Source of the DNA: Escherichia coli
GTDB taxonomy: Bacteria; Pseudomonadota; Gammaproteobacteria; Enterobacterales; Enterobacteriaceae
Assembly: GCF_048403405.1 (NCBI RefSeq)
Contig: NZ_CP183129.1
Direction: 5' to 3' (one strand)
DNA length: 64,000 nt
This document shows, piece after piece, positions 50,468-50,575 of the stretch. Numbering within the stretch: the stretch's first letter is position 1; every line of letters starts with the position of its first letter. The notes beneath the pieces are model-generated. The model did no database searches and had not been told where the DNA came from. It worked only from the letters and a program-made list of their open reading frames with translations. The position numbers and the translations under genes are program-made.

Positions 50468-50575
50468 TGCCGGATGCGATGCTGGCGCATCTTATCCGGC
50501 CTACGAATTGCACAATTTGTTGATGTTGTTGGGTTTTGTAGGCCGGATAAGGCGTTTACGCCGCATCCGGCACCT
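50468..50575. repeat. pair of REP elements in inverted orientation (BIME-like)
   Basis: GCCGGATGCG...CTTATCCGGCCTAC and GTAGGCCGGATAAGGCG...CGCATCCGGCAC read directly. Confidence 0.6.

What the first reader, a model, noticed from the sequence alone, without database searches (positions are those of the whole stretch)
50468..50575. REP/BIME elements at operon boundaries
Paired REP elements follow cyuA (50468-50575), and further REP copies follow mtr (about 4724-4752) and lie between yhaH and yqjG (about 53610-53715). These are ordinary E. coli intergenic repeats but mark likely transcript 3' ends and possible sites of strain-to-strain indel variation.
Basis: partly seen in the sequence, partly recalled or inferred. 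Interest (0 to 1): 0.15.

Follow-up and report, generated by a model that had tools for sequence, protein, structure and literature searches.

The report
Ordinary E. coli REP/BIME repeats

Summary
Confirmed and ordinary. Window 50468-50572 holds two inverted REPs in the 132-bp spacer between the convergent genes cyuA and yhaL. One is a z2-subtype copy (50468-50504). The other is a y-type copy (50538-50572) identical to a published 35-nt REP reference sequence. A 33-nt linker separates them, which fits an "atypical BIME" best. The mtr REP (4723-4752, z1) and the yhaH/yqjG pair (53614-53712, a diverged BIME-1) are also real. A fourth site, at 22114-22168 after agaA, was missed.

No classical hairpin-plus-T-run terminator lies in the cyuA/yhaL or mtr/yhbW spacers. 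Published K-12 data place a yhaKL mRNA 3' end 5 nt past the distal REP. They also show Rho-dependent termination further downstream on both strands. So the REPs most likely mark processed, exonuclease-resistant 3' ends, not termination sites.

Strain variation is confirmed. About 5,400 complete genomes carry four alleles at cyuA/yhaL: one REP (about 21%), two REPs with either of two linkers (about 36% and 18%), and a 78-bp tandem duplication (about 25%). About 10% of genomes have a split match at the mtr REP. In the two examined, an IS621 sits exactly in the REP tail.

Already known biology; low interest.

The parts
50468..50504 (-). REP-a: 37-nt z2-subtype REP. Read GTAG-first on the - strand it is GTAGGCCGGATAAGATGCGCCAGCATCGCATCCGGCA. 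It is the cyuA-proximal copy.
   Evidence: 4 mismatches to the z2 consensus, forming two compensatory pairs. Hairpin -22 kcal/mol, z -5.6. This exact subtype occurs at a median of 5 places per E. coli genome.
50505..50537 (.). 33-nt linker joining the CTAC/GTAG ends of the two REPs. It is the most variable part between strains.
   Evidence: Alignment A1. One place per genome. Only 6.3 bits against the empirical BIME-1 L-linker profile, whose family median is 42.9 bits.
50513..50525 (-). IHF-core-like sequence CATCAACAAATTG, one mismatch to WATCAANNNNTTR.
   Evidence: This is weak evidence: 53 such matches occur in the window against 56 expected by chance.
50538..50572 (+). REP-b: 35-nt y-type REP (GTAGGCCGGATAAGGCGTTTACGCCGCATCCGGCA). 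It is the yhaL-proximal copy and is kept in every allele.
   Evidence: Its complement is identical to the reference REP TGCCGGATGCGGCGTAAACGCCTTATCCGGCCTAC quoted in PMC11208160. Hairpin -20.9 kcal/mol, z -5.3.
50445..50447 (+). cyuA stop codon. 20 nt separate it from REP-a.
   Evidence: ORF 49137-50447; RefSeq annotation of matching genomes.
50580..50582 (-). yhaL stop codon. 7 nt separate it from REP-b, so the REP begins at the 8th nt after the stop codon.
   Evidence: ORF 50580-50750; annotation; sequence read directly.
50463..50463 (-). Inferred stable 3' end of the yhaK-yhaL mRNA, 5 nt past REP-a. The position is transferred by homology from K-12 coordinate 3255325(+).
   Evidence: Term-seq table of PMC7815308. 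Coordinates mapped through the K-12 annotation and alignment A1.
4723..4752 (-). Single z1 REP 40 nt after the mtr stop codon (4681-4683). Its tetranucleotide is ATAG, not GTAG. Its tail ATCAGGCCTAT matches the IS621 target at 10 of 11 positions.
   Evidence: IS621 occupies the orthologous site in L006 and L007.
4769..4788 (+). Probable decayed half of a y-type REP (GCCCGATAAGGC-TTCCCGC).
   Evidence: Local alignment score 23, above all 1000 shuffles, whose maximum was 21.
53614..53643 (-). z1-like REP of a diverged BIME-1, with a compensatory A..T pair in the stem.
53644..53677 (.). 34-nt L-type linker with the IHF-core-like sequence ATTCAATATGTTA at 53654-53666 (-).
   Evidence: 20.6 bits against the L profile, above all 500 shuffles.
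53678..53712 (+). Degenerate y-type REP with GTGG in place of GTAG and a weakened stem.
   Evidence: 5 mismatches. -10.8 kcal/mol, z -1.3. Other strains keep GTAG.
22114..22168 (+). It lies between the agaA stop (22244-22246) and the agaS start (21893).
   Evidence: -20.7 kcal/mol, z -5.9.

Best explanation
Window 50468-50572 is a bacterial interspersed mosaic element (BIME). It consists of two E. coli REPs in inverted orientation, a z2-subtype copy and a y-type copy, joined at their CTAC/GTAG ends by a 33-nt linker. It fills the spacer between the convergent cyuP-cyuA and yhaK-yhaL transcription units.

The combination of a z2-type REP, a long linker and a y-type REP, with copy number that varies between strains, fits the 'atypical BIME' class.

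Proposed mechanism:
- Shown for K-12: RNA polymerase from either side reads through the BIME and is stopped by Rho inside the opposing gene.
- Inferred: 3'-to-5' exonucleases trim the RNA back to the stable REP hairpins, so the REPs define and protect the mature 3' ends. For yhaKL mRNA that end was mapped 5 nt past the distal REP.
- Shown: at the DNA level the element is a hotspot for deletion and duplication between its internal repeats. The related REP after mtr is a natural insertion target of IS621.

The other sites (4723-4752, 53614-53712, 22114-22168) are members of the same repeat family.
For: Identity:
- Consensus matches that never occur in shuffles.
- GTAG tetranucleotide, AA/GC internal loop and stable hairpins.
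- Extragenic position between annotated genes.
- Many copies per genome.

Class:
- Definitions of BIME-1, BIME-2 and atypical BIMEs in PMC3333891.
- An L-linker profile built from 90 distinct 35-nt z-to-y linkers found by the scan of species-representative genomes scores site 3 at 20.6 bits and site 1 at only 6.3 bits.
- z2-34 nt-y units exist in other Escherichia and Pseudocitrobacter genomes.

RNA role:
- No hairpin plus T-run in the spacer.
- The whole BIME folds at -72 kcal/mol (z -5.9) on the + strand and -61.9 kcal/mol (z -7.0) on the - strand.
- Term-seq 3' end at K-12 3255325(+), 5 nt past REP-a.
- Rho termination regions at 3255571(+), antisense to cyuA, and 3255014(-), antisense to yhaK/yhaL.
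- yhaL-cyuA is listed as a convergent pair with overlapping transcripts in PMC12288877.

Translation rule: quoted in PMC12306157. Distances read.

DNA plasticity:
- The 73-bp deletion allele is joined at a shared GCCGGAT 7-mer.
- The long allele is a 78-bp tandem, 1.9 copies.
- Allele counts.
- IS621 sits in the mtr REP tail, matching the published target ATCAGGCCTAC.
Against: - The transcript data come from K-12. That strain differs from this window at 8 of 33 linker positions, at one REP-a position and by one base between REP-b and the yhaL stop.
- The Term-seq end was reported only once across the three growth-condition tables.
- RNA-seq coverage over repeats can be inflated by reads that map to several places.
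- Exonuclease trimming was not shown at this locus.
- On the + strand the hairpin is followed by CTGTCTTT, so weak intrinsic termination of cyuA transcripts cannot be excluded.
- No 3' end for cyuA itself is on record in the tables searched.
- The ribosome-stalling effect on YhaL is untested.
- IHF binding is not supported beyond a one-mismatch core that occurs at chance frequency in the window.
- The 'atypical BIME' label rests on REP length and linker score, not on the original authors' catalogue.
Confidence: 0.85

Rival explanations
1. The BIME is a bidirectional intrinsic (Rho-independent) terminator that physically stops both convergent transcripts.
For: - Very stable hairpins on both strands.
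- On the + strand the stem is followed by CTGTCTTT, 5 T in 8.
- The mapped 3' end lies 5 nt after a hairpin.
- REPs and BIMEs are credited with terminator or attenuator activity in the literature summarised in PMC3333891.
Against: - The terminator scan found nothing in the spacer on either strand.
- On the - strand the sequence after the distal REP is CGAUACCCAAAACC, with no U run.
- Bicyclomycin-sensitive, Rho-dependent read-through regions lie downstream of the BIME on both strands.
- The two transcripts are reported to overlap.
Confidence: 0.1
2. The element acts mainly at the DNA level as a protein-binding site for IHF and/or DNA gyrase that insulates supercoiling between the convergent units, and RNA effects are incidental.
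For: - Both paired sites carry a one-mismatch IHF core on the same strand, at a similar position in the linker.
- The BIME-1 L linker is described as frequently carrying an IHF site.
- Gyrase cleavage is enriched in BIME-2 and prefers y-type REPs (PMC6379681).
- Convergent transcription generates positive supercoils between the two genes (general knowledge).
Against: - The IHF core occurs at chance frequency in the window (53 observed, 56 expected).
- The site-1 linker scores at the bottom of the L family and differs strongly between strains. K-12 has ATTAAC in place of ATCAAC.
- About 21% of genomes lack the linker entirely.
- No binding data for this locus were examined.
Confidence: 0.15
3. 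The repeats are selfish or neutral remnants of RAYT (TnpA-REP) activity with no function for the flanking genes.
For: - Presence, absence and copy number vary freely among strains.
- Copies at sites 2 and 3 have lost GTAG or stem pairing.
- The short allele has lost GTAG.
- RAYT-driven BIME variability is the model proposed in PMC3333891.
Against: - REP-b, next to yhaL, is retained with an intact hairpin in every allele examined.
- A stable RNA 3' end maps to the element.
- Stem changes in REP-a and in the site-3 z1 copy are compensatory. This could equally reflect selection for recognition by the transposase.
Confidence: 0.25

Closest known systems
E. coli REP (palindromic unit) family, types y, z1 and z2
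   Same: Length (35, 29-30 and 37 nt), GTAG/CTAC foot, AA/GC internal loop, consensus sequence, extragenic location and many copies per genome.
   Different: REP-a is a minor z2 subtype with a G..C pair in place of T..A and a T..A pair in place of C..G, about 5 copies per genome. The mtr copy has ATAG, and the site-3 y copy has GTGG and a weakened stem.
BIME-1 (also called RIP or RIB): z1 - L linker with an IHF site - y
   Same: Site 3 (53614-53712) has z1 plus y joined at their CTAC/GTAG ends, a 34-nt linker that scores 20.6 bits on the L profile, and one copy at the locus. Site 1 shares the linker length (33 nt), the final TTTT and a central CAAT.TGTTGA core.
   Different: Site 1 has a z2-length REP in place of z1, only 6.3 bits on the L profile, and copy number that varies between strains. 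IHF binding was not tested for either site.
BIME-2 and atypical BIMEs (z2 plus y, tandem, variable linkers)
   Same: Site 1 combines z2 and y. Its linker is locus-specific and variable. Strains carry 1, 2 or about 3 REP units, as described for BIME-2 and atypical BIMEs.
   Different: The window has no short S linker and no array. The long allele is only 1.9 copies of a 78-bp unit, and its middle REP is reduced to GTACCTGA.
REP-stabilised mRNA 3' ends after Rho-dependent termination
   Same: Hairpins in the 3' UTR, no U run, a mapped RNA end a few nt past the hairpin, and bicyclomycin-sensitive read-through further downstream.
   Different: Exonuclease dependence was not shown at this locus, and the data are from K-12, not this strain.
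IS621 (IS110 family, bridge-RNA recombinase) insertion sites in REPs
   Same: In other strains IS621 sits in the tail of the orthologous mtr REP at the CT core of ATCAGG(C/T)CTAC.
   Different: The window's copy is uninterrupted and reads ATCAGGCCTAT (10 of 11). No perfect 11-nt target occurs anywhere in the window.

Membership tests
E. coli REP family | Match to the y, z1 or z2 consensus | tested here: met
   y: 1 mismatch. z1: 2 mismatches at each of two sites. z2: 4 mismatches, all compensatory. Chance expectation 0.00.
E. coli REP family | Imperfect palindrome with a conserved AA/GC internal mismatch | tested here: met
   The copies folded in GTAG-first orientation show a 2x2 internal loop at that position.
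E. coli REP family | GTAG tetranucleotide at the foot of the stem | tested here: met
   Present in REP-a, REP-b, the site-3 z1 copy and the site-4 copy. Not met in the mtr copy (ATAG) or the site-3 y copy (GTGG).
E. coli REP family | Extragenic position and high copy number in the genome | tested here: met
   All copies lie between annotated genes. Median 5 places per genome for the REP-a subtype alone.
BIME-1 (RIP/RIB) | One z1 and one y REP in inverted orientation | tested here: not met
   Site 1 has a 37-nt z2-length REP, not z1. Site 3 does meet this feature.
BIME-1 (RIP/RIB) | Conserved L linker of about 35 nt (empirical consensus AAGATTTCTGCAATATATTGAATTTGCACGATTTT) | tested here: inconclusive
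   Site 1: 33 nt, 6.3 bits (K-12 allele 1.7 bits) against a family median of 42.9 and minimum of 5.0, yet above all 500 shuffles. Site 3: 34 nt, 20.6 bits.
BIME-1 (RIP/RIB) | IHF binds the linker | not testable with these tools
   Only a one-mismatch core is present, and that core occurs at chance frequency in the window.
BIME-2 / atypical BIME | z2 plus y REPs, with linker sequence and copy number varying between strains | tested here: met
   z2 subtype plus y. Four alleles with 1, 2 or about 3 REP units and divergent linkers. Definition from PMC3333891.
BIME-2 / atypical BIME | Short S linker and tandem array of units (strict BIME-2) | tested here: not met
   The window holds a single z2-33 nt-y unit with no S linker.
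Intrinsic terminator | G+C-rich hairpin followed directly by a T run | tested here: not met
   No site in 50448-50579 or 4684-4799 on either strand. CTGTCTTT after REP-b on the + strand is borderline.
IS621 target site | 11-nt target ATCAGGCCTAC (or ATCGGGCCTAC) with a CT core | tested here: not met
   Best matches in the window are 10 of 11, at 4742-4752, 50494-50504, 50538-50548 and 53633-53643. Orthologous mtr sites in L006 and L007 are occupied by IS621.

The most novel reading that the evidence does not exclude
The allelic series at the cyuA/yhaL junction (one REP; two REPs with either of two linkers; a 78-bp duplication) could be a lineage-specific regulatory polymorphism. By changing the length and stability of the shared 3' UTR structure, it would tune two things: the mutual antisense interference between the cysteine-degradation operon cyuPA and yhaKL, and REP-dependent ribosome stalling at the yhaL stop codon.
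Probability: 0.1. Interest if true: 0.35.

Novelty: already known. Interest (0 to 1): 0.1.

Why it matters
It matters little beyond annotation. The result tells annotators that these spacers are repeat-derived, and that RNA 3' ends there are probably processed ends, not termination sites. It also flags the cyuA/yhaL and mtr/yhbW spacers as convenient, strongly polymorphic markers among E. coli lineages, through BIME copy number and IS621 occupancy. The one mildly useful lead is that a REP sits 8 nt after the yhaL stop codon in every allele, which makes YhaL a candidate for REP-dependent translational down-regulation.

Tried and rejected
- A fuzzy-regex consensus scan timed out. It was replaced by Hamming-distance scans.
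- My first degenerate REP pattern had the wrong inner spacing and found nothing.
- The feature table returned for NC_000913.3 lists no REP features in this stretch.
- Rfam has no match at any REP. Its only hit in the window is RNase P RNA.
- I searched both linkers against all E. coli genomes to see whether they are multi-copy L motifs. Each gave one place per genome. The site-3 linker, which does score as an L type on the profile, also failed. The test is therefore too insensitive, and I replaced it with a profile built from 90 distinct linkers.
- The IHF consensus is not enriched in the window, so I do not claim IHF binding.
- The Liang, Rudd and Deutscher 2015 paper is not held. Its rule is cited second-hand from PMC12306157.
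- Small ORFs overlapping the BIME (50372-50590 on +, 50379-50513 on -) were dismissed as chance. The sequence is a multi-copy repeat, and the annotated genomes call no gene there.
- The terminator scan missed the obvious hairpin at 53742-53761. My reading is that its stem extension consumed part of the T run, so I read that hairpin directly from the sequence.

Full report
**What is there**

The window is E. coli chromosome. The 501 bp around the finding match 5,425 of 5,426 complete E. coli genomes and are 100% identical to strain TUM14771. RefSeq annotation there names cyuA, yhaL and yhaK. The window runs opposite to the K-12 numbering.

cyuA lies on the + strand at 49137-50447. yhaL lies on the - strand at 50580-50750. 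The two genes converge on a 132-bp spacer.

The spacer contains two REPs.
- REP-a (50468-50504) is 37 nt. It differs from the z2 consensus at four positions that form two compensatory base pairs.
- REP-b (50538-50572) is a y-type copy. Its complement is identical over 35 nt to a reference REP sequence quoted in PMC11208160.

Consensus scans gave 0.00 matches in 100 shuffles. In GTAG-first orientation each REP folds into the family's hairpin, with the GTAG foot and the AA/GC internal loop. Energies are -21 to -22 kcal/mol and z about -5. These features match the description in PMC8266576.

The two REPs face each other through their CTAC/GTAG ends across a 33-nt linker.

**The other sites**

- The mtr REP (4723-4752) is a single z1 copy with two mismatches, 40 nt after the mtr stop. 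It lies between the convergent genes mtr and yhbW. Its tetranucleotide is ATAG. A decayed half of a y copy follows at 4769-4788.
- The yhaH/yqjG pair is a z1-like copy (53614-53643), a 34-nt linker and a degenerate y copy (53678-53712).
It is a half y copy followed by a well-formed 37-nt z2-like REP.

No other REPs were found by core-signature scans.

**Which kind of BIME**

PMC3333891 defines three classes.
- BIME-1 is z1 plus y with a conserved long L linker that often carries an IHF site. It occurs as a single copy.
- BIME-2 is z2 plus y in tandem arrays with a short S linker.
- Atypical BIMEs are chimeras whose linkers and copy number vary between strains.

To test the linkers I scanned the species-representative genome collection (one genome per species) for a z-type REP end, 28-40 nt, then a y-type REP end. 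The 90 distinct 35-nt linkers give the consensus AAGATTTCTGCAATATATTGAATTTGCACGATTTT.

| Linker | Score on the L profile |
|---|---|
| Family median / minimum | 42.9 / 5.0 bits |
| Site 3, window | 20.6 bits |
| Site 3, K-12 | 24.6 bits |
| Site 1, window | 6.3 bits |
| Site 1, K-12 | 1.7 bits |

Site 3 is therefore a diverged BIME-1. The site-1 linker is only marginally L-like.

Units of z2, a 34-nt linker and y occur in other Escherichia and Pseudocitrobacter genomes. With a z2-type REP, a long locus-specific linker and variable copy number, site 1 fits the atypical class best. REP-a itself is a small multi-copy subtype, with a median of 5 places per genome.

**How it probably works**

Neither the cyuA/yhaL spacer nor the mtr/yhbW spacer contains a hairpin followed by a T run. 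As RNA the whole BIME is very stable:
- -72 kcal/mol, z -5.9, on the cyuA strand.
- -61.9 kcal/mol, z -7.0, on the yhaL strand.

Published K-12 data fit a processing model.
- The Term-seq table of PMC7815308 lists a 3' end at 3255325(+). Its flanking sequence runs through REP-a and ends 5 nt past it. I checked the table's sequence register against thrL. This position corresponds to window 50463 on the - strand.
- The same study's bicyclomycin data list Rho termination regions at 3255571(+), antisense to cyuA, and at 3255014(-), antisense to yhaK/yhaL. These lie about 200-250 nt beyond the BIME on each strand.
- A third Rho region lies antisense to mtr.
- PMC12288877 lists yhaL-cyuA among 165 convergent gene pairs with overlapping transcripts in MG1655.

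My inference is that transcription crosses the BIME, Rho stops it inside the opposing gene, and exonucleases trim back to the REP hairpins.

REP-b starts 8 nt after the yhaL stop codon in the window and 9 nt after it in K-12. [quoted passage not shown] That rule comes from Liang et al. 2015, as quoted in PMC12306157. REP-a begins 21 nt after the cyuA stop codon (a 20-nt gap) and does not meet it.

At site 3 a separate hairpin (53742-53761) sits directly after the yqjG stop. The BIME there is reached only by read-through.

Evidence for IHF binding is weak. Both linkers hold a one-mismatch core, but such cores occur at chance frequency in the window.

**Strain variation**

Alignment of exemplar genomes shows the alleles at cyuA/yhaL.
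- The short allele keeps only REP-b. It lacks 73 bp, and the junction falls at a GCCGGAT 7-mer shared by the two REPs. This points to a deletion that also removed GTAG.
- The long allele is a 78-bp tandem duplication (1.9 copies, 87% matches) of REP-a plus linker. A middle REP is reduced to GTACCTGA.
- The two-REP allele comes with two very different linkers. K-12 and the window differ at 8 of 33 linker positions.

Allele counts among about 5,400 complete genomes:

| Linker or allele | Count or share | Source |
|---|---|---|
| K-12-type linker | 3,313 genomes | |
| Window-type linker | 961 genomes | |
| First linker of the long allele | 1,336 genomes | |
| Short allele (one REP) | about 21% | derived |
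| K-12-type two-REP allele | about 36% | derived |
| Window-type two-REP allele | about 18% | derived |
| Long allele | about 25% | derived |

The short and long shares agree with an evenly spaced sample of hits, 6 and 7 of 29 rows.

At mtr, 588 of 5,424 genomes lack a contiguous match. In the two I examined, an IS621 transposase gene sits between the two halves. It is joined at ...ATCAGGT-CT and CT-ACGTAGG, inside the REP tail. This matches the published natural target ATCAGGCCTAC with its CT core.

At site 3 the window lacks 10-11 bp next to the z1 REP relative to K-12 and O157, and the linker and y copy carry many substitutions.

**Verdict**

Nothing here departs from known REP/BIME biology, so interest is low.

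Noticed in passing
window 22114-22168: A fourth REP site not in the finding: a half y copy followed by a well-formed z2-like REP, lying between the agaA stop and the agaS start at the boundary of the two aga transcription units.
   Followed up: partly
L006 3748-5028 and L007 (orthologous to window about 4748-4752): IS621, the IS110-family bridge-RNA recombinase element, is inserted exactly in the tail of the mtr REP in E. coli O26 RM8426 and AMSCJX04. About 10% of complete genomes show the same split match.
   Followed up: partly
window 53742-53768: Hairpin AGGCACCT-CGTA-AGGTGCCT sits directly against the yqjG stop codon and is nearly invariant among five strains (one deletes a C in the second arm). 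Its T run is on the + strand, opposite to yqjG. The terminator scan did not report it.
   Followed up: no
window 53082-53104 (- strand): Terminator-like hairpin GCCGGATG...CATCCGGC followed by TTTTATCATT, just after yhaH. It shares the GCCGGATG arm with REPs but is not a REP.
   Followed up: no
L126 689-1969 (Escherichia sp. MOD1-EC7003): Eight tandem copies of a 159-bp z1-L-y unit (96% matches), although BIME-1 is described as occurring singly.
   Followed up: partly
L064, L087, L105-L109: Exact E. coli-type z-linker-y pattern matches on tiny or low-coverage contigs assigned to Desulfosporosinus, Methylobacterium, Alkalicoccobacillus and a Collinsella MAG. Enterobacterial contamination or mis-binning in those assemblies is the likely cause.
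   Followed up: no
window 35582-35957 (+): RNase P RNA gene (rnpB), 317 bits. It is the only Rfam match in the window.
   Followed up: no
window 22244-23398 (- strand): The agaA homologue (annotated nagA) is an uninterrupted 384-aa ORF.
   Followed up: no
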